DNA of 64,000 nt from a virus (taxonomy: Duplodnaviria > Heunggongvirae > Uroviricota > Caudoviricetes), in the IMG/VR virus record IMGVR_UViG_2563366960_000002; one strand, 5' to 3'. Position 1 is the stretch's first letter. Every line of letters begins with the position of its first letter. Positions 42,513-53,768 of this stretch are shown here, piece by piece. The notes below the pieces were generated by a model. It searched no databases, was not told the DNA's origin, and was given only the letters and a program-made list of their open reading frames with translations. Made by a program: the position numbers and the translations under genes.

Positions 42513-45659
<3,147 letters not shown>

Positions 45660-46679: not shown

Positions 46680-46981
46680 TGCGTCTCCTTTTCCCTGACT
46701 AAAAGCTCATCCAGCTTGCTTTTATGTTTGAGCACATAGCCACATATTTTTCCTTTGGAGCTAATTTGCGGAATGGAATAATATTCCGAAAATACTAATT
46801 CAGCCTTTTCTAAGACAAGTGAAACACCATAGCGCGCAACATGTCTGTCGATCATTTTTGCATCTCTGAGATTACCTTTAATTGATAGCCAGTCGTTGAG
46901 GTACATATGGTTGCGATTGGCTTTTTTCAGCATGTCGCTCAACCAATTTTTATTACGCTTAGTTAGTTTCCGTTGCATCAA
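46676..46981 (-). CDS. Small AT-rich gene downstream of ban (dbn-like)
   Basis: 101 aa; start overlaps the ban stop; about 38% GC. Confidence 0.45.
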   Translation of the reverse strand: MMQRKLTKRNKNWLSDMLKKANRNHMYLNDWLSIKGNLRDAKMIDRHVARYGVSLVLEKAELVFSEYYSIPQISSKGKICGYVLKHKSKLDELLVREKETQ

Positions 46982-48342
46982 TAATCCTCTTGCCAGTCAG
47001 CACCAGCATAGTTATCAAACCGTGAGTATTGGCCGTTAAAAGCCAATCTCACCGTGCCAATTGGGCCATTTCGTTGCTTACCGATAATCACCTCGGCAAT
47101 GCCCTTCATTTCGCTATCCGGGTGATAAACTTCGTCGCGATACAGAAACATGATCAGGTCTGCGTCCTGCTCAATTGCTCCTGATTCACGTAAATCTGAA
47201 TTTACCGGACGTTTGTCCGCACGCTGTTCAAGCGATCGATTAAGTTGTGACAATGCCACCACCGGTACTTGTAATTCCTTCGCCAACGCCTTCAGTGAGC
47301 GAGAAATCTCGGCAATTTCCAGCGTTCGGTTATCTTGCAGCTCGGGGACGCGCATAAGTTGCAGGTAGTCGATCATAATCATGCTCAAACCACCATTTTC
47401 TTTATAAACACGACGAGCGCGGGAACGTAGCTCTGTCGGCGTCAGGGCGCTTGAGTCATCAATAAAAATATTCTGCTTGTCCAACAGAATCCCCATTGCG
47501 CCAGAAACCCGCGCCCAATCCTCGTCGTTAAGTTGCCCTGTTCGAATACGAGTCTGATCAACGCGTGCAAGAGAAGCCAGTGAGCGCATCATCAGCTGGT
47601 GGCTCGGCATCTCAAGGCTAAAAACCAATACGGGCTTATCGTTACGGACTGCGGCATTTTCGACGAGATTCATCGCAAACGTAGTCTTCCCCATCGATGG
47701 GCGGGCGGCGACAATAATGAGATCGGACGCCTGAAGTCCTGCCGTCTTCTTATTGAGATCGGTAAATCCGGTATCAAGCCCCGTTACACCATCATGCGGT
47801 CGCTGAAACAACTCTTCTATGCGAGATACCGTTGCATCGAGAATGCTGGCGATATCTTTTGGACCACTACCGCTCTTTTGTCGTTTTTCAGCTATTTCAA
47901 AAACGCGGCGCTCGGCCATATCCAGCAATTCATTGCTGCCCCTGCCATCCTGCGCATATCCAGCTTCGGCTATTTCATTTGCGACGGAAATCATTTCACG
48001 AACAACCGCGCGTTCACGAACGATATCCGCATAAGCACAAATATTTGCCGCGCTGGGCGTGTTCTTTGACATCTCCGCAAGGTACGCAAAACCACCGGCG
48101 CGTTCTAATTTACCGTTCTGTTCAAGTGCTTCAGCAAGTGTTATCAAATCAATCGGTTTGCCATGACTTAATAACCTCTCCATCTCACTGAAAATTTCAC
48201 GATGAGCACTGGTATAAAAATCATCAGCAACTATACGATCTGCAACTTCATCCCAGCGGCAGTTATCAAGCATTAAGCCACCAAGTACAGCTTGTTCTGC
48301 ACTAAGGGAATTTGGCATGGATTCAAGAGGGGATGCAGACAT
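46978..48342 (-). CDS. ban: Ban, DnaB-family replicative helicase
   Basis: 454 aa from ATG 48342 (GGAG Shine-Dalgarno); near-colinear with E. coli DnaB (AEQAVLGGLMLDN..., Walker A GKTTFAMN, ...GKQRNGPIGTVRL). Confidence 0.95.
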   Translation of the reverse strand: MSASPLESMPNSLSAEQAVLGGLMLDNCRWDEVADRIVADDFYTSAHREIFSEMERLLSHGKPIDLITLAEALEQNGKLERAGGFAYLAEMSKNTPSAANICAYADIVRERAVVREMISVANEIAEAGYAQDGRGSNELLDMAERRVFEIAEKRQKSGSGPKDIASILDATVSRIEELFQRPHDGVTGLDTGFTDLNKKTAGLQASDLIIVAARPSMGKTTFAMNLVENAAVRNDKPVLVFSLEMPSHQLMMRSLASLARVDQTRIRTGQLNDEDWARVSGAMGILLDKQNIFIDDSSALTPTELRSRARRVYKENGGLSMIMIDYLQLMRVPELQDNRTLEIAEISRSLKALAKELQVPVVALSQLNRSLEQRADKRPVNSDLRESGAIEQDADLIMFLYRDEVYHPDSEMKGIAEVIIGKQRNGPIGTVRLAFNGQYSRFDNYAGADWQEDY

Positions 48343-48627
48343 TAGCACTCCACCCAGGCGTGCTGAATGTCAGATATAATCGGCATACTCAAATCACTCC
48401 TAACGATATGAGTCATCACCAGAAAATCAGGATTAATGCGCCGGACTCTTCCCGGCTGTCACACCGAATCGCCAGGATGGTGAGTCCCTGTATCCGCTAT
48501 CCCTCCAACGGTGACTTGCACATTCCGGCTACCTGGTTTGTTGCCTGAGCTAGGGGAAAAGGTAACCCCTTTAACGTCACCAGACCGCTAACGACGCATG
48601 TGCCAGACGCCGTGTTACAACCAAATA

Positions 48628-48703
48628 TGGTGGCCCCTACCGGACTTGAACCGGTGACCGTGCGATTATGAGTCGCCAGCTCTAACCACTGAGCTAAAGG
48701 GCC
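48628..48703 (-). tRNA. tRNA-Ile2 (anticodon CAU, ileX-like)
   Basis: 76 nt, GGCCCTTTAGCTCAGTGGTTAGAGC...ACTCATAATCG...GGTTCAAGTCC...GGGGCCACCA; closely resembles E. coli ileX; cloverleaf checked by hand. Confidence 0.85.
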
Positions 48704-48730
48704 GGATTACTGCCAATTTTGCTTACGCTT

Positions 48731-49558
48731 TTATTTCACCGGAACAAACGGAACAGCGGCATTACTGGTCATATACTGCGGTAATGTACCGTTCCATTTG
48801 TTGATCGCTTCCAACTCCATAACACCGGGGTTCTGGCGCAGAGCTTCACCACGTAAACGAATGGCATCAGCTTCGGCCTGGGCTTTTGTGCGAATAGCAT
48901 CAGCCTGTCCGGCAGCTTCCGCGCGCAGCATGTTGGCCTCTGCTTCACGTTGTTTGACCTCTTGCTCGCGTTGCAGGGTTTTTTGGTTTGCCGTAACTTT
49001 GGCGTTAATACTGTCAATAACTGTTGGCGGATATTCTGGCTTACCTACATAAGAGAGGCTCATCACCTGAATGCCGATTGGCGTCATTTCTTCCTGAATG
49101 TCTTTAAGGGCTGCATCAAGCAATTCAGATTTGCCACCGTCGATAAATTTGTCGGTGGTCATTTTGCTGGCTAACCGGTTCAGAGCATCTGCAACCTTCT
49201 GGCGTAGATCGGTATCAGTAATATCATCTACACCTTTGCGATAGGTCTGAAATACCGTTGTGACTTTTGCTGGATCAACCTTGTAGGCTACGCCGATGTG
49301 GTAACCAATGGTTGTTCCGTCGCTCATCTGGAAGCTGAACGGCTCATCGTATGTCTTCATTTGCTTAAAGGTCGGGAAGATATAAACTTCAGTATTCAAG
49401 CCTGTCCAGTAGCGACCAACACCAACTACTTCACCGATACCTTTATCATCCCCCAGCTTATTTACTTTGATCCCTACGTTACCTGGCTCTACCCGATCGC
49501 ATCCGGTCAGACATAAAGAACCCAAAATAATCGCTGCACTAATCAACGTTTTTTTCAT
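48731..49558 (-). CDS. plp: SPFH/band-7 domain lipoprotein (Plp-like)
   Basis: 275 aa; lipobox LTGC after signal peptide; HflK/prohibitin-like core and Ala/Glu-rich coiled-coil. Confidence 0.75.
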   Translation of the reverse strand: MKKTLISAAIILGSLCLTGCDRVEPGNVGIKVNKLGDDKGIGEVVGVGRYWTGLNTEVYIFPTFKQMKTYDEPFSFQMSDGTTIGYHIGVAYKVDPAKVTTVFQTYRKGVDDITDTDLRQKVADALNRLASKMTTDKFIDGGKSELLDAALKDIQEEMTPIGIQVMSLSYVGKPEYPPTVIDSINAKVTANQKTLQREQEVKQREAEANMLRAEAAGQADAIRTKAQAEADAIRLRGEALRQNPGVMELEAINKWNGTLPQYMTSNAAVPFVPVK

Positions 49559-49775
49559 TAATTAATTTCCTGGTTTTTTCACGAAAAAAGACTACTGCGA
49601 AAGCCGGGTAAATGAGCGCGAGAAGGACTCCCAACAATACAAGTATTGTGCTGTTAGATGAGATCATATTTGGCAAAAGCCAAACATACAGAACCAGTGA
49701 CACAATCAAACAGAGGACGGCATAAATATATAACCGCACCCATAGCGTTCGACATTTGTTCGGATTGTTCTGCAT
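49539..49775 (-). CDS. upl: Small membrane protein upstream of plp (Upl-like)
   Basis: 78 aa, two TM segments; overlaps the plp start. Confidence 0.55.
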   Translation of the reverse strand: MQNNPNKCRTLWVRLYIYAVLCLIVSLVLYVWLLPNMISSNSTILVLLGVLLALIYPAFAVVFFREKTRKLINEKNVD

Positions 49776-50038
49776 CCTCTCACTCCATTATTTAACGAAT
49801 AAAAAAGCTGCGGTGCCGGGTACCTCCCGGTGTCCTTTGGCTGGTTATCCACCGTGGACGGGGAAACAAGGAGAAATGAATGGACTGATATAACCATTTC
49901 CCCGCGTGCGCTTAGCCGCATTCACCGCAATGGTAAGAGCACTTGGCTGGCTGGGCGGCGATGACGCCTGTATGCATTTGGTGATCCGGTTCTGCTTCCG
50001 GCATTCGCTTAATTAGCCAAATACTCTTAACGTTGCGC

Positions 50039-50125
50039 TGGCGGAGAGTAATGGAATCGAACCATCATCGCTTGCGCTATGGGACGGTTTTCAAGACCGC
50101 TTGAGCACCATGCTCCCTACTCTCC
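50039..50125 (-). tRNA. tRNA-like element with UGA anticodon loop (Ser-like, class II; possibly degenerate)
   Basis: 87 nt; acceptor GGAGAGT/ACTCTCC-G-CCA, anticodon arm GCGGT-CTTGAAA-ACCGT, T-loop TTCGATT; D-arm atypical. Confidence 0.35.
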
Positions 50126-50260
50126 CGTTATTGTGGCGACCGGTGCTGATCTCCGGCTTGCGGTTATTTCAGACTCTCACGGGCGTTTAATTGCCCCGCC
50201 GAACAGCTCTTTTCCGCAATAGCTGCAATGTCTTTCGCGCATCAGCCTGCGCATTCACCA

Positions 50261-50349
50261 CAACGTTGAGAACACTGGTTGTCACGCGCAACGCAACATT
50301 TATTCGTAGATTGGGATATGACCCCGTTACGCCAGTGTTCTCAACGTTG
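50261..50349. repeat. Perfect 18-bp inverted repeat with 53-nt spacer inside the tRNA cluster
   Basis: CAACGTTGAGAACACTGG ... CCAGTGTTCTCAACGTTG. Confidence 0.6.
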
Positions 50350-50578
50350 TAGTGCCGGTTACGGTTCCGGCCAGGCCTCTTCCTCAACGGGGTGTTCTCC
50401 ATACGGACTACCGTTTATTGGTCGTTCCTGCGGTTTATGTTGTGAAGCCAGATGCTTATCTTCTGGTTGCTTCAAAGAGCTGCACTTCATCACAACGGTA
50501 AGAGCATTTATGGCTCGCATCGCGGGAAAAAGCCCACGGTAGAGAGTCGAACTCTACAAATGCTCTTACCTGTTGTGT

Positions 50579-50654
50579 TGGTGCCGGTTAACGGGATCGA
50601 ACCGCTGACCATTCGCTTACAAAGCGACTGCTCTACCAACTGAGCTAAACCGGC
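50579..50654 (-). tRNA. tRNA-Thr (anticodon UGU)
   Basis: 76 nt, GCCGGTTTAGCTCAGTTGGTAGAGC...CTTTGTAAG...GGTTCGATCC...CCGGCACCA. Confidence 0.85.
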
Positions 50655-50658
50655 AATT

Positions 50659-50745
50659 TGGTGGGGAGTGATGGAGTCGAACCACCCGAGTCGCAATGAC
50701 AGTAGATTTACAGTCTACCCCGCTACCCCTACGGACTAACTCCCC
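50659..50745 (-). tRNA. tRNA-Tyr-like (anticodon GUA, long variable arm)
   Basis: 87 nt; acceptor GGGGAGT/ACTCCCC-A-CCA, anticodon arm GTAGA-CTGTAAA-TCTAC, T-loop TTCGACT; D-arm atypical. Confidence 0.6.
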
Positions 50746-50750
50746 TAAAT

Positions 50751-50827
50751 TGGCGATGGTGGGTGGATTCGAACCACCGACCGACAGCTTAGAAGGCTGC
50801 TGCTCTATCCTACTGAGCTACACCATC
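50751..50827 (-). tRNA. tRNA-Arg (anticodon UCU, argU-like)
   Basis: 77 nt, GATGGTGTAGCTCAGTAGGATAGAGC...CCTTCTAAG...GGTTCGAATCC...CACCATCGCCA. Confidence 0.8.
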
Positions 50828-51486
50828 ACTTGCCGGGTACGTCTCCGGCGAGGGCTTCCACCTCCGTATGCTTTTCGGCGCACCGCGCCCTGGCTGCAAT
50901 TCGGTAACAGGGGATGCACAACCCTGGCTTCCAACGTGATTAGCGCCTTCAGCATGACGGGATATACCCGTAGTAGGACGTTATCTTCAAATTGCTAAAA
51001 GCAATTGCTGTTACGCAGAATGAAAAAGGACGTAACAGGTAAGGACGCTGACCAAAAAGATGGCCCCTTCTCGCTCATCTGGTTAATCGAACCAGCGCCC
51101 TTACCTGTTGTGCCTCCCCGTTCCCTAATACACAGACGGGGACACTCTGCGGTCGATTTTTTGACGGGGGACGACTCATACCCCGTGGCGTCTGGCTTCT
51201 TAGGCCGCTACCATCATCAGATCATCGTTTGCATTTACTTTAATGGTCAGTTTCTAAACCGCCGCAAAGTCGCTAACCATGACGAAAACCCTGAAAAAAA
51301 CGCCCACCCGAAGATGGGCAAACTGGAAGCTCGTAACGCACTTCGGTGTTGCCACTTAGGCGTATGGTCAACCTGGCAACTCGGCGTCATGATGGGGAAG
51401 GAGTCACTACCCCGCCATACTTGCCGCCGCGCCTGTCGCGGCTAACAGCTAAATCGCTCTATAAATCACGATTCATTGATGCGATA

Positions 51487-51513
51487 TTACACTAATAAAT
51501 TTATTAGAGCAAT
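51487..51513 (-). promoter_or_regulatory. C1 operator (perfect consensus, palindromic extension) at the head of the tRNA/plp/ban unit
   Basis: Reverse complement ATTGCTCTAATAAATTT (17/17) overlapping an opposite-orientation ATTACACTAATAAATTT; overlaps the dmt stop. Confidence 0.7.
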
Positions 51514-53768
51514 ATAGCCATAACGTCATGAGCAACACCACGAGTGTCTCCCTTACAAGACACAGAACGTCTGGCAAAGAGAGGTTCCACTCTGAAGCCA
51601 CTATCCTGATAAAGTTCTCTGACGTTTGGCGCGCCACTGTTAGTAATGAGTACCTTTGCACCTCGGCGATGAGCATCCGTCAACAGAGACACCAGGCGTT
51701 TTTGCTCTTCAAACTTAAAGTCATGACCGGAATAGTTCGTAAACCCCTCTGTATTGGGGAGCGGTTCATACGGCGGATCGCAAAAGATGACATCTCCTTC
51801 TCCGGCAGCTTCAATCACTGCTGCAAAATCACCGCATACAAACTCAGACCGCCCTTCCGCACCGAGGAAGGCTTCCATCTCCTGTAATGGGAAATACGGA
51901 GTTTTATACTTCCCATAACCGACATTGAACTCACCGGCCTGGTTGTAGCGCGTCAATCCATTAAAACAATGTCGGTTCAGGAACAAAAACGCCGCTGCGC
52001 GATGTAAATCATCATAGACTTGTTTGTTAAACGCATTCCGTACTGCCAGGTATCCTTCCTGTGTGTTGTAGTCCTGGAAAAACTGATGCGCCAGTGCGAT
52101 AAGTGAATGCGCCTCGCGTTGCAGAGTCTTGTAAAAGTTAATCAGGTCAGCATTCACATCATTTAGCAGATTTTCCTGGTATCCGGCATTCATGAAGACA
52201 GCTCCGCCACCGACGAAAGGTTCAATCAGGCGCTTCCCTTCTGGCAAATAGCGAAAGATTTGTTCCAGAACACCAAATTTTCCACCGGCCCATTTGAATA
52301 TGGACCGTTCGAATTCTGCCGCTGGTTTAAGTTTTCGCTCTTTTGTTTCACTTCCTTCTTTCTGCCGACATACGGCCTTAGTAATCCGATCGCCAATCCA
52401 GCGCATTACTGGTATTGCCATACTATTGCCGATCGCTTTGTAACGCGGTCCGTCAGCTGCAAGCATCGCGGCCTCTTCTTCGCTTAAATCTGGATAGTGA
52501 TTGCGAAGATATGCCAGTTCATCTGAATTAACTTTTTTACGCTTTTCCGTAGGGATCAATGTATGTCCATCAGGAAAACCTTGCAGCCTTTCACATTCGA
52601 CAGGGGTAAGACGGCGGACAGCTACTTCTGCGTTTCTTACTTCATAGCAAACAGCTGTTGGATTTTTAGCCATTAGAGATGGTGAAGTATTCTTAGTTGC
52701 AGCATGTTGTGTACCGCTCATACGCTCAGGAAAAGCCAATGTAACAAGATGCTCATGGCTTTCTTGCTCACGTGCCCGCAATGTACCATGCCCTTCTGAC
52801 CAAAAACCTGCTCCTGTGCTGCTAAAAACGGCAAGGTCAGTGGCATCTTTAAAATCTCTTGCCTTTACTGTCGATGCGGTTTCATCGTCAATATATTCCC
52901 CAAATGCCGCCATCCTGAAAGCGTTTACGGCTTTCGTCGATTTCATACCGGGTGGCATGTCAGCGTGTAGGCATGGATTTAGGCTTTCGCCACTGATTGC
53001 AGCGCCATTTGCAATAATGGCGGAAGCGATTTCCTTCTTTTTTCGGCTCGGCGCAATATTCCGGCGCACGCCTTCGAACTCAAAAAGTACCGTTGCGGGA
53101 TCGAGGTCTGTTCGAGCACTTGCGACAACAAACACGCGTCGGCGTCGTTGTGCCACTCCGAAGTATTGGGCATCAAGGATTCTCCAGGCCACCTTTCGCT
53201 GCGGTCCATAAATACAACCACACTGCGGCCACTTTGGAGCATGGCAACCGGTTTTGCCATCCCACCGCCAGAACGCGTTACTTTTTCCTGATTCAGGTCG
53301 ATCACCTGGTTCAAATGGCGCATCTTCTCCAGCCAATCCGGCAAGGAAACATCCGAAGGCGTTATCTGCCGATGACAGGACTCCTGGGACATTTTCCCAG
53401 ACGATAACTGTCGGTTTGAGGAAGGACTCAGACCGTTTGTCGTCAATTGCATTTGCAAGCTCCACATACTTCAAAGTTAGCGCGCCGCGTTCATCATCAA
53501 GCCCACCACGTAAGCCCGCGATACTGAATGCCTGACAAGGCGTACCCCCGACGAGCACATCAGGGGATTCGATTTCCCCAGCCAGGACTTTTTGGGCAAG
53601 TTTTGTCATGTCGCCAAGGTTGGCGACATGGGGCCAGCGGTGCGCAAGAACGGCAGATGGAAAAGGCTCGATTTCAGCAAACCACGCCGGACGCATACCC
53701 AACGGTTCCCAGGCAATACTCGCGGCTTCAATTCCACTGCAAACAGATCCATAGCACAGCTCTTTCAC
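51504..53768 (-). CDS. dmt: Dmt, fused C5-cytosine / N6-adenine DNA methyltransferase
   Basis: 754 aa; N-terminal half with PCQ motif ([12 protein letters not shown]) and ENV; C-terminal half with Dam-like DPPY; GTG start with GGAGAGG Shine-Dalgarno. Confidence 0.9.

What the first reader, a model, noticed from the sequence alone, without database searches (positions are those of the whole stretch)
49800..51450. Expanded tRNA cluster with tRNA-like relics and long-stem/50-nt-loop hairpins
Besides tRNA-Ile(CAU) next to ban, a tight array encodes tRNA-Thr(UGU), a Tyr-like class II tRNA(GUA), tRNA-Arg(UCU) and a Ser-like tRNA-like element. Canonical P1 is recalled to carry three tRNAs (Asn, Thr, Ile). 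Between them are a perfect 18-bp inverted repeat (50261-50349) and two further imperfect long inverted repeats (about 50493-50575 and 51032-51108) whose loops hold T-arm-like hairpins, plus recurring ACAGGTAAG(A/G)GC motifs.
Basis: partly seen in the sequence, partly recalled or inferred. Interest (0 to 1): 0.5.

Follow-up and report, generated by a model that had tools for sequence, protein, structure and literature searches.

The report
Non-coding RNA island in P1-like phage
This stretch is the untranslated leader of the ban operon of a P1-like phage-plasmid: real tRNA genes alternate with a widespread family of long RNA hairpins that phage lambda also carries, and beside them lies an unannotated reading frame that looks like the tmRNA degradation tag.

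Summary
On the minus strand (the sense strand of the ban operon) there are tRNA-Arg(UCU), Tyr(GUA) and Thr(UGU), an atypical tRNA-Ser(UGA)-like gene, tRNA-Ile2(CAU) next to ban, and four long-stem hairpins rather than three.

- The "expanded" tRNA set is one common allele of a combinatorial slot seen in many P1-like plasmids.
- The hairpins are not decayed tRNAs. They belong to a conserved RNA hairpin family that is also present in canonical P1, in lambda directly after tR', and in lambdoid, T1-like, N4-like and Vi1-like phages.
- Their stems covary: 92.9% of cells are paired, 12 of 21 pairs change on both sides, and G·U outnumbers A·C 57 to 5. This points to RNA on the ban-sense strand.
- Their loops are interchangeable cargo. 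Six of 75 loop types hold a canonical T-arm.

Most likely the hairpins are RNase III-type processing or punctuation stems that also act as recombination linkers between RNA cassettes. This is inferred, not shown.

An unplanned finding lies at 51114-51290. It is a start-codon-less reading frame of 10 codons (ANDDLMMVAA*), under clear coding constraint and followed by a covarying pseudoknot. It is a tmRNA-like tag module with no recognisable tRNA-like domain, it occurs in five phage groups, and it is not annotated.

The parts
51486..51513 (-). C1 operator (Op72/Oban) and ban promoter region at the 3' end of dmt. This is the start of the leader.
   Evidence: The sequence ATTGCTCTAATAAATTTATTAGTGTAAT aligns with the annotated P1 Pban/Obanab.
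51289..51389 (-). Region that P1 annotates as 'dicF-like'. It ends in an intrinsic terminator (stem 51301-51320 plus a U run).
   Evidence: P1 annotation mapped through alignment A1 and the terminator scan. There is no Rfam DicF hit at E<=10.
51114..51290 (-). tmRNA-like tag module. It comprises a conserved 5' part, a start-less ORF GCA..TAA at 51200-51232 (ANDDLMMVAA*), a small hairpin with the stop codon in its loop, an H-type pseudoknot (about 51152-51186), and hairpin B (51114-51143).
51029..51114 (-). HP1, a long-stem hairpin of the family (23 pairs, 36-nt loop).
50828..50975 (-). Nearly invariant non-coding block directly upstream of the first tRNA. Its function is unknown.
   Evidence: Alignment A1, columns about 550-716.
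50751..50827 (-). tRNA-Arg(UCU). It shares its acceptor stem, D stem, T arm and G73 with the tRNA-Asn(GUU) that fills this slot in P1.
50659..50745 (-). tRNA-Tyr(GUA), class II, with A73 and an encoded CCA.
50579..50654 (-). tRNA-Thr(UGU). This allele differs from the P1 allele in the anticodon stem and T loop.
50493..50577 (-). HP2. It starts 3 nt after the CCA of tRNA-Thr. Its loop holds a canonical T-arm (GUAGAGUUCGACUCUCUAC) followed by a closed hairpin.
50254..50356 (-). HP3, the most perfect stem (23 pairs). Its loop forms a three-way junction.
50039..50125 (-). Atypical tRNA-Ser(UGA)-like gene. It has G73, an encoded CCA and a covarying long variable arm, but an abnormal D arm with a long stem and a very small loop.
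49926..50037 (-). HP4. Its loop is module M2, the conserved element found in lambda at 44847-44977.
49809..49929 (-). Homolog of the prophage sRNA family STnc100/PasD, ending in a terminator-like hairpin and U run.
   Evidence: Rfam scores 35.1 bits here and 48.7 bits in L011, against a gathering score of 47. See also the preprint 10.64898/2026.05.13.724894.
48628..48703 (-). tRNA-Ile2(CAU), called trnI in P1, upstream of ban.

Best explanation
Region 49800-51450 is the non-coding leader of the C1-repressed ban operon of a P1-like phage-plasmid. It is read on the minus strand.

It is a mosaic of RNA cassettes: a dicF-like region with a terminator, a tmRNA-like tag module, three canonical tRNAs, an atypical Ser-like tRNA, module M2 and an STnc100-like sRNA. 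These cassettes are separated by four copies of a long-stem hairpin family.

The hairpins fold in the RNA. Their near-perfect stems of 20-25 bp most likely serve as RNase III-type processing sites. Such cleavage would cut the polycistronic leader into separate RNAs, release tRNA 3' ends, and leave structured ends on the neighbouring RNAs.

Because the arm sequence is shared between copies and between phages, the hairpins also act as homologous-recombination linkers through which loops and tRNA cassettes are swapped. That would produce the combinatorial tRNA alleles.

The tRNAs mainly supply codons that the phage uses more often than the host does (AGA, AUA, ACA, UCA).

Shown: the tRNAs, the hairpin family, its RNA-level covariation, its spread across phages, and mosaic boundaries at the arms. 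Inferred: RNase III cleavage, the recombination role, and codon supplementation.
For: Context. P1 annotation places Pban/Op72 at the end of dmt, with trnA, trnT and trnI in the leader. The window aligns to this region.

Strand and structure.
- Minus-strand folds are more stable than plus-strand folds.
- Over 55 distinct arm pairs, 92.9% of cells are paired against 82.9% in shuffles (0 of 500 reach it). Twelve of 21 pairs change on both sides. Slid controls give 35-51%.
- G·U pairs outnumber A·C 57 to 5 in stem columns 8-20.
- Basal stems take alternative complementary sequences: CACAAC/GUUGUG, CUAUC/GAUAG and GAAAUCUGG/CCAGUUUUC.

Spread.
- The hairpins occur in P1, P7, D6 and P1-like plasmids, and in lambda right after tR'.
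- There are 75 loop types across the fetched loci.
- The hairpins flank the tag module in T1-like, N4-like and Vi1-like phages and in HK620.

RNase III. Stems of 21-27 pairs are long enough. [quoted passage not shown]

Mosaicism. In alignment A1 the HP2 loop is replaced between P1, P7 and the window while the arms and flanks stay conserved. The insertions in Ro157c2 and pEA15 abut hairpins or bring in an extra one. The tRNA slot holds Asn-Thr, Asn-Tyr-Thr, Arg-Tyr-Thr, Arg-Thr or Asn, each with or without Ser+M2.

Codon use in the window ORFs, per 1000 codons, against recalled E. coli values: AGA 4.9 vs about 2.1, AUA 9.3 vs about 4.3, ACA 11.9 vs about 7.1, UCA 10.6 vs about 7.2.
Against: - No cleavage data exist for these hairpins. 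I could not read the lambda paper, so I cannot say that its mapped sites fall in this hairpin.
- RNase III does not need a specific sequence, so the strong conservation of the arm core (GGUAAGRGC / GYGCUCUUWCC) is not explained by processing alone.
- HP1 and HP3 are not adjacent to tRNAs.
- An intrinsic terminator (51301-51320) lies between Pban and everything downstream, and no sigma-70-like promoter was found in the region. How the island is transcribed is therefore unclear.
- Tyr codons are not enriched in the phage, so codon supply does not explain tRNA-Tyr.
- The hairpins used for the pair counts were chosen because they fold, which inflates the percentage paired.
Confidence: 0.55

Rival explanations
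1. The hairpins are decayed tRNA genes, that is, tRNA-like relics left by turnover of an expanded tRNA cluster.
For: Canonical T-arms occur in 6 of 75 loop types against 0.23 expected from shuffles, with a maximum of 3 in 1000 shuffles. HP2 in the window and HP2 in P1 each carry one. The hairpins sit among tRNA genes.
Against: No tRNA covariance hit falls on any loop at E<=10. Most loop types (69 of 75) lack a T-arm. The T-arm lies on the 5' side of the loop in some types and on the 3' side in others. The conserved, covarying part is the long stem, which no tRNA has. The family occurs in lambda, which has no tRNAs. The HP1 'T-arm' is a window-lineage variant of a GUGUGAUUAA loop.
Confidence: 0.1
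2. The repeats act only in DNA, as linker or boundary sequences for homologous recombination between phage modules, or as cruciform or single-strand hairpins. They have no role in the RNA.
For: Arm sequences are conserved across unrelated phages, and loops and cassettes are swapped between them.
Against: G·U outnumbers A·C 57 to 5 on the transcribed strand, and the minus-strand RNA folds are more stable than the plus-strand folds. Basal stems change sequence while keeping complementarity. A pure homology linker does not require that.
Confidence: 0.15
3. The hairpins are genes for stable small RNAs: a long terminal stem plus a tRNA-like or other structured head. This resembles bacterial Y RNAs (YrlA) or T4 species 1/2 RNAs. 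They would act as decoys for tRNA-targeting defence nucleases or for tRNA-binding enzymes.
For: HP2 has the order long stem, T-arm, closed hairpin, D-like segment, long stem. This is the YrlA topology and is read directly from the sequence. M2 in the HP4 loop is conserved in sequence in lambda, P1-likes and lytic rV5-like phages, while its closing stem changes sequence. The neighbouring tRNAs (Tyr, Arg, Thr, Asn) are of kinds known to be targeted by anticodon nucleases (own knowledge).
Against: No Rfam YrlA hit falls on the hairpins; the weak hits lie on real tRNAs. Loops are hypervariable, with 75 types, which argues against a single conserved ligand. No Ro/Rsr gene was looked for or seen in the region examined.
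Confidence: 0.15
4. A hairpin plus the adjacent tag module together form a two-piece (permuted) tmRNA-like RNA. The hairpin would be the long P2-like helix carrying a tRNA-like head, and the tag module would be the coding piece.
For: In most non-P1 phages a family hairpin lies immediately 5' of the tag module and another lies about 100 nt 3' of it. In L175 the Rfam tmRNA model hits the hairpin T-arm (model positions 347-363) upstream of the tag (model positions 83-140), which is the permuted order. The tmRNA_permuted model reaches 33 bits.
Against: ARAGORN finds no tmRNA in about 150 loci. No acceptor end with CCA or a G3·U70 pair was found. T-arms are absent from most flanking hairpins. In P1-likes the element upstream of the tag is a terminator, not a hairpin. 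All covariance-model scores are below the gathering score.
Confidence: 0.1

Closest known systems
P1 ban-operon leader with trnA(Asn), trnT(Thr) and trnI (P1 genome annotation NC_005856)
   Same: Same locus and orientation, same C1 operator, same trnI next to ban. HP1-HP3 and the tag module are all present in P1.
   Different: Arg(UCU) replaces Asn in the first slot, and Tyr is inserted. The Thr allele and the HP2 loop differ. The Ser-like tRNA with HP4/M2 is present here, as in P7 and D6. An SPFH-domain gene replaces upl/plp/tciABC.
Lambda late-operon leader downstream of tR', where RNase III processing sites are reported (Daniels et al. 1988; known to me by title only)
   Same: A hairpin with the same arm sequence (CACAACAGGTAAGAGC...GCTCTTTCCGTTGTG), followed by M2, at lambda 44790-44977.
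   Different: Lambda has one hairpin and no tRNAs. In lambda, M2 has its own 9-bp closing stem, whereas here it sits inside a family hairpin. I have not verified that the mapped RNase III sites lie in this hairpin.
tmRNA (SsrA) mRNA-like domain
   Same: A start-less frame opening with GCA AAC GA, 10 codons long, ending in hydrophobic-Ala-Ala. UA at positions -5/-4 before the resume codon. The stop codon lies in a hairpin loop and a pseudoknot follows.
   Different: There is no tRNA-like domain, no CCA end, and no similarity to E. coli ssrA outside the tag. The tag ends in VAA, MAA or AVA instead of LAA. All Rfam scores are below threshold.
T4 tRNA cluster with stable species 1 and 2 RNAs (own knowledge)
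   Same: Phage tRNA genes are co-transcribed with structured RNAs of unknown function. As I recall, RNase III cuts species 1 RNA in vitro.
   Different: No sequence relationship was tested or seen. The phage family is different.
STnc100 / PasD prophage sRNAs (RF02076; Zhu, Shabalina and Storz, bioRxiv 2026)
   Same: The 3' end of the island (49809-49929) matches model positions 31-147, including the terminal hairpin. The family is typical of lambdoid late leaders.
   Different: The score here is 35 bits, below the gathering score of 47. The element sits in a P1-like ban leader rather than between Q and the lysis genes.

Membership tests
tRNA (RF00005 / ARAGORN) | A cloverleaf that scores at or above the Rfam gathering score (29 bits) | tested here: met
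   Arg 72.1, Thr 67.2, Ile2 64.7 and Tyr 41.9 bits. All are also called by ARAGORN.
tRNA (the Ser-like element 50039-50125) | A cloverleaf that scores at or above the Rfam gathering score | tested here: not met
   It is not listed at the gathering threshold. ARAGORN calls it Ser(TGA). The D6 annotators note that tRNAscan-SE did not assign an amino acid. The variable arm covaries between P1-like and rV5-like copies, and G73 plus CCA are present. It therefore probably works like a class II tRNA but fails the model test.
tRNA-Sec (RF01852) | Score at or above 47 bits and a UCA anticodon | tested here: not met
   The score is 41.8 bits and the anticodon is UGA.
tRNA (hairpin loops taken as relic tRNAs) | Any covariance-model hit to the tRNA clan on the loops | tested here: not met
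   No hit at E<=10 on 51029-51114, 50493-50577 or 50254-50356.
RNase III processing site | A double-stranded RNA stem of about 20 bp or more on the transcribed strand | tested here: met
   The stems have 16-23 pairs by the simple scan and 21-27 pairs across relatives. Covariation and G·U asymmetry place the structure in the RNA.
RNase III processing site | rnc-dependent staggered cleavage in vivo or in vitro | not testable with these tools
   Only the title of Daniels et al. 1988, on the lambda late leader, is available.
tmRNA | An mRNA-like domain: a start-less tag frame under coding constraint with a resume-codon context | tested here: met
   There are 32 distinct ORFs and 17 peptides, all 10 codons plus a stop. 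Synonymous/non-synonymous single-nucleotide codon differences are 537/599 in the tag frame, against 67/1244 and 230/950 in the other two frames.
tmRNA | A tRNA-like domain with an acceptor stem, G3·U70, a T-arm and a 3' CCA | tested here: not met
   ARAGORN in tmRNA mode finds none in about 150 loci. Nothing further was found in the whole window.
tmRNA | A covariance-model score at or above the gathering score (47 bits for RF04321 and RF00023) | tested here: not met
   24.1 bits in the window. The best score in relatives is 33.5 bits.
DicF sRNA | A match to the Rfam DicF model | tested here: not met
   No DicF hit at E<=10 in 48300-51800. The label 'dicF-like' comes only from the P1 annotation.
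STnc100 (RF02076) | Score at or above 47 bits | tested here: inconclusive
   35.1 bits in the window. The orthologous position in L011 scores 48.7 bits.
YrlA / bacterial Y RNA (RF02553) | A covariance-model match on the hairpins, and linkage to an Rsr (Ro) gene | tested here: not met
   Only weak hits of 25 bits, and these lie on real tRNA pairs rather than on hairpins.

The most novel reading that the evidence does not exclude
Enterobacterial phages of at least five groups (P1-like, lambdoid/HK620, T1-like, N4-like and Vi1-like) carry a conserved RNA that encodes an SsrA-like degradation tag, with the pattern A-N-[DE]-[DEN]-x-[FYVM]-[LMK]-x-[AV]-A. The ribosome would have to enter this frame without initiation. 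That would make it a phage trans-translation template. It could work as a two-piece tmRNA whose tRNA-like part is supplied by the flanking long hairpins after processing, or it could exploit host tmRNA/SmpB. The long-hairpin family that punctuates phage tRNA islands would then be part of that system.
Probability: 0.3. Interest if true: 0.85.

Novelty: new variant of a known kind. Interest (0 to 1): 0.6.

Why it matters
As a tRNA cluster this is ordinary. P1-like elements carry a polymorphic tRNA slot, and this window holds one common allele.

Two things go beyond that.

The family has clear RNA-level covariation but no Rfam entry. It gives a testable model of how phages process and reshuffle non-coding RNA cassettes in operon leaders.

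Second, next to the hairpins lies a tmRNA-like tag frame under coding constraint, with a covarying pseudoknot but no tRNA-like domain. It is present in 660 of 5426 complete E. coli genomes and in 265 phage records, and the listed records carry no RNA annotation there. If it is translated, it would link phages to ribosome rescue and proteolytic tagging in a way that the literature I could search does not describe.

Tried and rejected
- Integron attC-like cassette sites. The arms do not fit the RYYYAAC/GTTRRRY cores and no integrase is nearby. This was judged by inspection only.
- Host ssrA copy. Smith-Waterman alignment of the tag module against E. coli ssrA scores no better than shuffles outside the tag.
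- M2 as a small protein gene. The lambda and rV5-like versions differ by a 1-nt indel inside the candidate ORF and the ATG is lost.
- Tag ORF read in another frame, from the conserved AUG. Lengths vary from 5 to 9 codons and the synonymous/non-synonymous count is 67/1244.
- An ORF running into the tag from upstream. There is a conserved in-frame UAG 8 codons upstream, and 1-nt indels lie before it.
- Stx phage 933W as a home of the hairpins. It has none. K-12 DLP12 also has none.
- A PK1-like structure 5' of the tag. RNAalifold proposes a helix, but its register is not kept in N4-like copies.
- A first version of the T-arm scan missed bulged stems and was redone.
- Literature. The P1 genome paper and Daniels 1988 are not held. 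Searches for phage tmRNA-like elements found nothing relevant.
Full report
**What the window is.** The stretch matches P1-family phage-plasmids. It is 99.9% identical to E. coli plasmid NZ_CP124376 and about 90% identical to P1, P7, D6 and RCS47. In P1 this interval lies between dmt and ban. It is the leader of the ban operon, which is transcribed from Pban under the C1 operator Op72. In the window the operon runs on the minus strand: dmt is 51504-53768, ban is 46978-48348, and the operator sequence is at 51486-51513. Every feature discussed below is on that strand.

**Check of the observation.**
- ARAGORN finds tRNA-Arg(UCU), Tyr(GUA) and Thr(UGU) at 50579-50827, a Ser(UGA)-type gene at 50039-50125, and the CAU tRNA (trnI of P1) at 48628-48703.
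- Rfam's tRNA model accepts Arg, Thr, Ile and Tyr.
- The Ser-like element passes no gathering score. Its best match is tRNA-Sec at 41.8 bits against a threshold of 47, because of an unusual D arm with a long stem and a tiny loop.
- The Ser-like element nevertheless has G73 and an encoded CCA. Its long variable arm keeps pairing through compensatory changes between P1-like and rV5-like phage copies. It is probably a working but atypical class II tRNA. The D6 annotators already flagged it.
- I found a fourth hairpin at 49926-50037, directly after the Ser-like tRNA.
- The four minus-strand folds have z-scores from -3.0 to -8.7, and HP1-HP3, the three also folded on the plus strand, are more stable on the minus strand.
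- The motif ACAGGTAAGRGC occurs twice against 0.02 expected.

**The tRNA set is an allele, not an expansion peculiar to this element.** I examined 12 annotated relatives and about 100 IMG/VR loci. The slot holds Asn-Thr, Asn-Tyr-Thr, Arg-Tyr-Thr, Arg-Thr or Asn alone, each with or without the Ser-like gene. The window's combination recurs in plasmids L007 and L010 and in about 16 viral contigs.
- The Arg(UCU) gene shares its acceptor stem, D stem, T arm and discriminator with the Asn(GUU) gene it replaces. Only the D loop, which now carries A20, and the anticodon arm differ. The replacement therefore happened inside the tRNA gene.
- Arg, Tyr and the Ser-like gene are about 83% identical to those of lytic rV5-like phages.
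- The window's ORFs use AGA, AUA, ACA and UCA 1.5- to 2.3-fold more often than the E. coli values I recall. Tyr codons are not enriched.
- Codon supply therefore fits four of the five tRNAs. For Tyr, a role against tRNA-cleaving defences is only a conjecture.

**The hairpins are a widespread RNA family.**
- HP1-HP3 are present in canonical P1. HP4 travels with the Ser-like gene in P7, D6 and many plasmids.
- Lambda has the same hairpin immediately after tR'. It is followed by a conserved module, M2, which in the window forms the loop of HP4.
- M2's 19-mer occurs in 103 viral contigs. The lambdoid hairpin+M2 stretch used as a query occurs in 839 of 5426 complete E. coli genomes, with no annotated feature under the listed matches.
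- In rV5-like phages the M2 sequence is kept while the closing stem has a different, still complementary, sequence. An inner hairpin shows GGCG/CGCC, GUCG/CGAC and GGAG/CUCC.
- For the hairpin stems, 55 distinct arm pairs give 92.9% paired cells against 82.9% in shuffles (0 of 500 reach it). Twelve of 21 pairs change on both sides. Slid controls give 35-51%.
- G·U pairs outnumber A·C 57 to 5. Basal stems occur as CACAAC/GUUGUG, CUAUC/GAUAG or GAAAUCUGG/CCAGUUUUC.
- Together these results place the structure in RNA of the ban-sense strand.
- Caveat: the hairpins were collected because they fold, so the percentage paired is inflated. The asymmetry and the double-sided changes are not affected.

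**Loops are cargo.** I counted 75 loop types across the fetched loci. Six hold a canonical T-arm (a 5-bp stem with a UUCRANY loop), against 0.23 expected from shuffled loops. T-arms are therefore truly enriched, but they are a minority, and they lie on either side of the loop. No loop scores as a tRNA. The window's HP1 'T-arm' is a two-base variant of the loop GUGUGAUUAA found in P1, P7 and D6. That motif recurs in a different hairpin of other phages. The 'relic tRNA' reading is therefore not the general explanation.

**Likely mechanism.**
- Near-perfect stems of 20-27 bp are what RNase III cuts.
[quoted passage not shown] I could see only its title. I cannot confirm that the sites fall in this hairpin, so this step is inferred.
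- HP2 and HP4 begin 0-3 nt after the CCA of Thr and of the Ser-like tRNA. The same juxtaposition is seen in rV5-like phages.
- Because all copies share arm sequences, the 3' arm of one hairpin is complementary to the 5' arm of the next. Segments between hairpins could therefore also close on themselves after cleavage.
- The same shared arms are natural sites for homologous exchange. In alignment A1 the HP2 loop differs between P1, P7 and the window while the arms and flanks are conserved. The large insertions in Ro157c2 and pEA15 abut hairpins or bring in an extra one.
- What this model does not explain: why the arm core is so conserved in sequence; the roles of HP1 and HP3; and how transcription passes the terminator at 51301-51320. 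No promoter-like site was found in the region.

**An unplanned finding inside the given coordinates.**
- Between that terminator and HP1 lies a block that is invariant among P1, P7, D6 and the window. It has homologs of 70-88% identity in 265 phage records: Vi1-like, T1-like and N4-like phages and HK620. It is also present in 660 of 5426 E. coli genomes.
- It contains GCA AAC GAT GAT CTG ATG ATG GTA GCG GCC TAA at 51232-51200, which reads ANDDLMMVAA*.
- Across 146 copies there are 32 distinct sequences and 17 peptides. All are exactly 10 codons plus TAA or TAG, with the pattern A-N-[DE]-[DEN]-x-[FYVM]-[LMK]-x-[AV]-A.
- Single-base codon differences are 537 synonymous to 599 non-synonymous in this frame, against 67/1244 and 230/950 in the other two frames. 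The other frames mostly contain stops.
- There is no start codon, and an in-frame UAG lies eight codons upstream.
- The stop codon sits in a small hairpin loop. An H-type pseudoknot follows, in which both stems covary. Stem 1 is 94.5% paired. Stem 2 occurs as CCGA/UCGG, CCAG/CUGG, CCAA/UUGG or GUCG/CGAC.
- Rfam's permuted-tmRNA model matches the resume-codon context at up to 33.5 bits, below the threshold of 47.
- No tRNA-like domain is detectable. ARAGORN finds no tmRNA in about 150 loci. There is no similarity to E. coli ssrA beyond the tag. Nothing else was found in the window.
- Some copies have their own TTGACA-17-TAGATT promoter. Most are flanked by family hairpins.
- A 2014 census lists phage ssrA only in mycobacteriophages and Bacillus phage G (PMC4131195). 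My searches found no description of this element.
- How a ribosome would enter this frame is unexplained.

**Other parts of the island.** The 3' end (49809-49929) is a homolog of the prophage sRNA family STnc100/PasD, with a terminator. It scores 35 bits here and 48.7 bits in a relative. The 'dicF-like' label in P1 is not backed by the DicF model.

**Verdict.** The tRNA cluster itself is a known polymorphism. The hairpins are members of a conserved, apparently uncatalogued RNA hairpin family, and are most likely RNase III-type punctuation and recombination linkers (confidence about 0.55). The adjacent tmRNA-like tag module is the most novel item and needs experimental work.

Noticed in passing
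window 51114-51290 (minus strand); also L120-L123 and about 120 IMG/VR loci: A tmRNA-like tag module. It is a start-less 10-codon frame (ANDDLMMVAA*) under coding constraint. The stop codon lies in a hairpin loop, followed by a covarying H-type pseudoknot and a hairpin with the loop GUGUGAUUAAUAA. No tRNA-like domain was found. It occurs in P1-like, HK620, T1-like, N4-like and Vi1-like phages and is not annotated as an RNA in any listed record.
   Followed up: yes
window 49950-50015 (loop of HP4); lambda 44847-44977 (L116 1060-1140); L012 2490-2580: Module M2 is a conserved structured element (AAUUAAGCGAAUGCCGGAAGCAGAACCGGAU...GGCGUCAUCGCC). It is shared by lambda, lambdoid prophages, P1-likes and lytic rV5-like phages, with a covarying closing stem and inner hairpin. 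It has no Rfam family. The lambdoid hairpin+M2 stretch is found in 839 of 5426 E. coli genomes.
   Followed up: partly
window 50751-50827 compared with L001 3277-3352: tRNA-Arg(UCU) and the tRNA-Asn(GUU) that fills the same slot in P1 share acceptor stem, D stem, T arm and G73. Only the D loop (which gains A20) and the anticodon arm differ. This is a chimeric or remoulded tRNA gene. tRNA-Thr likewise exists as two alleles that differ in the anticodon stem and T loop.
   Followed up: partly
window 49809-49929 (minus strand): A homolog of the prophage sRNA family STnc100/PasD with a terminal terminator-like hairpin. It scores 35.1 bits here and 48.7 bits in L011. The family is normally described in lambdoid late leaders.
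   Followed up: partly
window 51289-51389 (minus strand): The region that P1 annotates as 'dicF-like' ends in a strong intrinsic terminator (51301-51320). That terminator lies between Pban and the whole RNA island. The Rfam DicF model does not match it.
   Followed up: partly
window 50828-50975 (minus strand): A block of about 150 nt directly upstream of the first tRNA is almost invariant among P1, P7, D6, Ro157c2 and plasmids, although the neighbouring sequence varies. It is neither a tRNA nor a family hairpin. Its function is unknown.
   Followed up: no
window 50357-50490 (minus strand): The invariant spacer between HP2 and HP3 can be read as a 43-codon ORF (MKCSSLKQPEDKH...). In Ro157c2YLVW this ORF is interrupted by an in-frame TAG, so coding is doubtful.
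   Followed up: no
L012 2676-2767 and 2385-2483 (phage phita32, rV5-like): The tRNA array of a lytic rV5-like phage holds an unrelated 25-bp long-stem hairpin between Tyr and the Ser-like gene. It also holds a 99-nt tRNA-like gene with a long extra arm that ARAGORN cannot assign (Rfam tRNA 35.5 bits).
   Followed up: no
window 48731-49775 (minus strand): Between the RNA island and trnI the window has a 78-aa ORF and a 275-aa ORF. The 275-aa ORF is annotated in relatives as an SPFH-domain protein or 'putative serine protease'. Canonical P1 has upl/plp and tciABC in this position.
   Followed up: no
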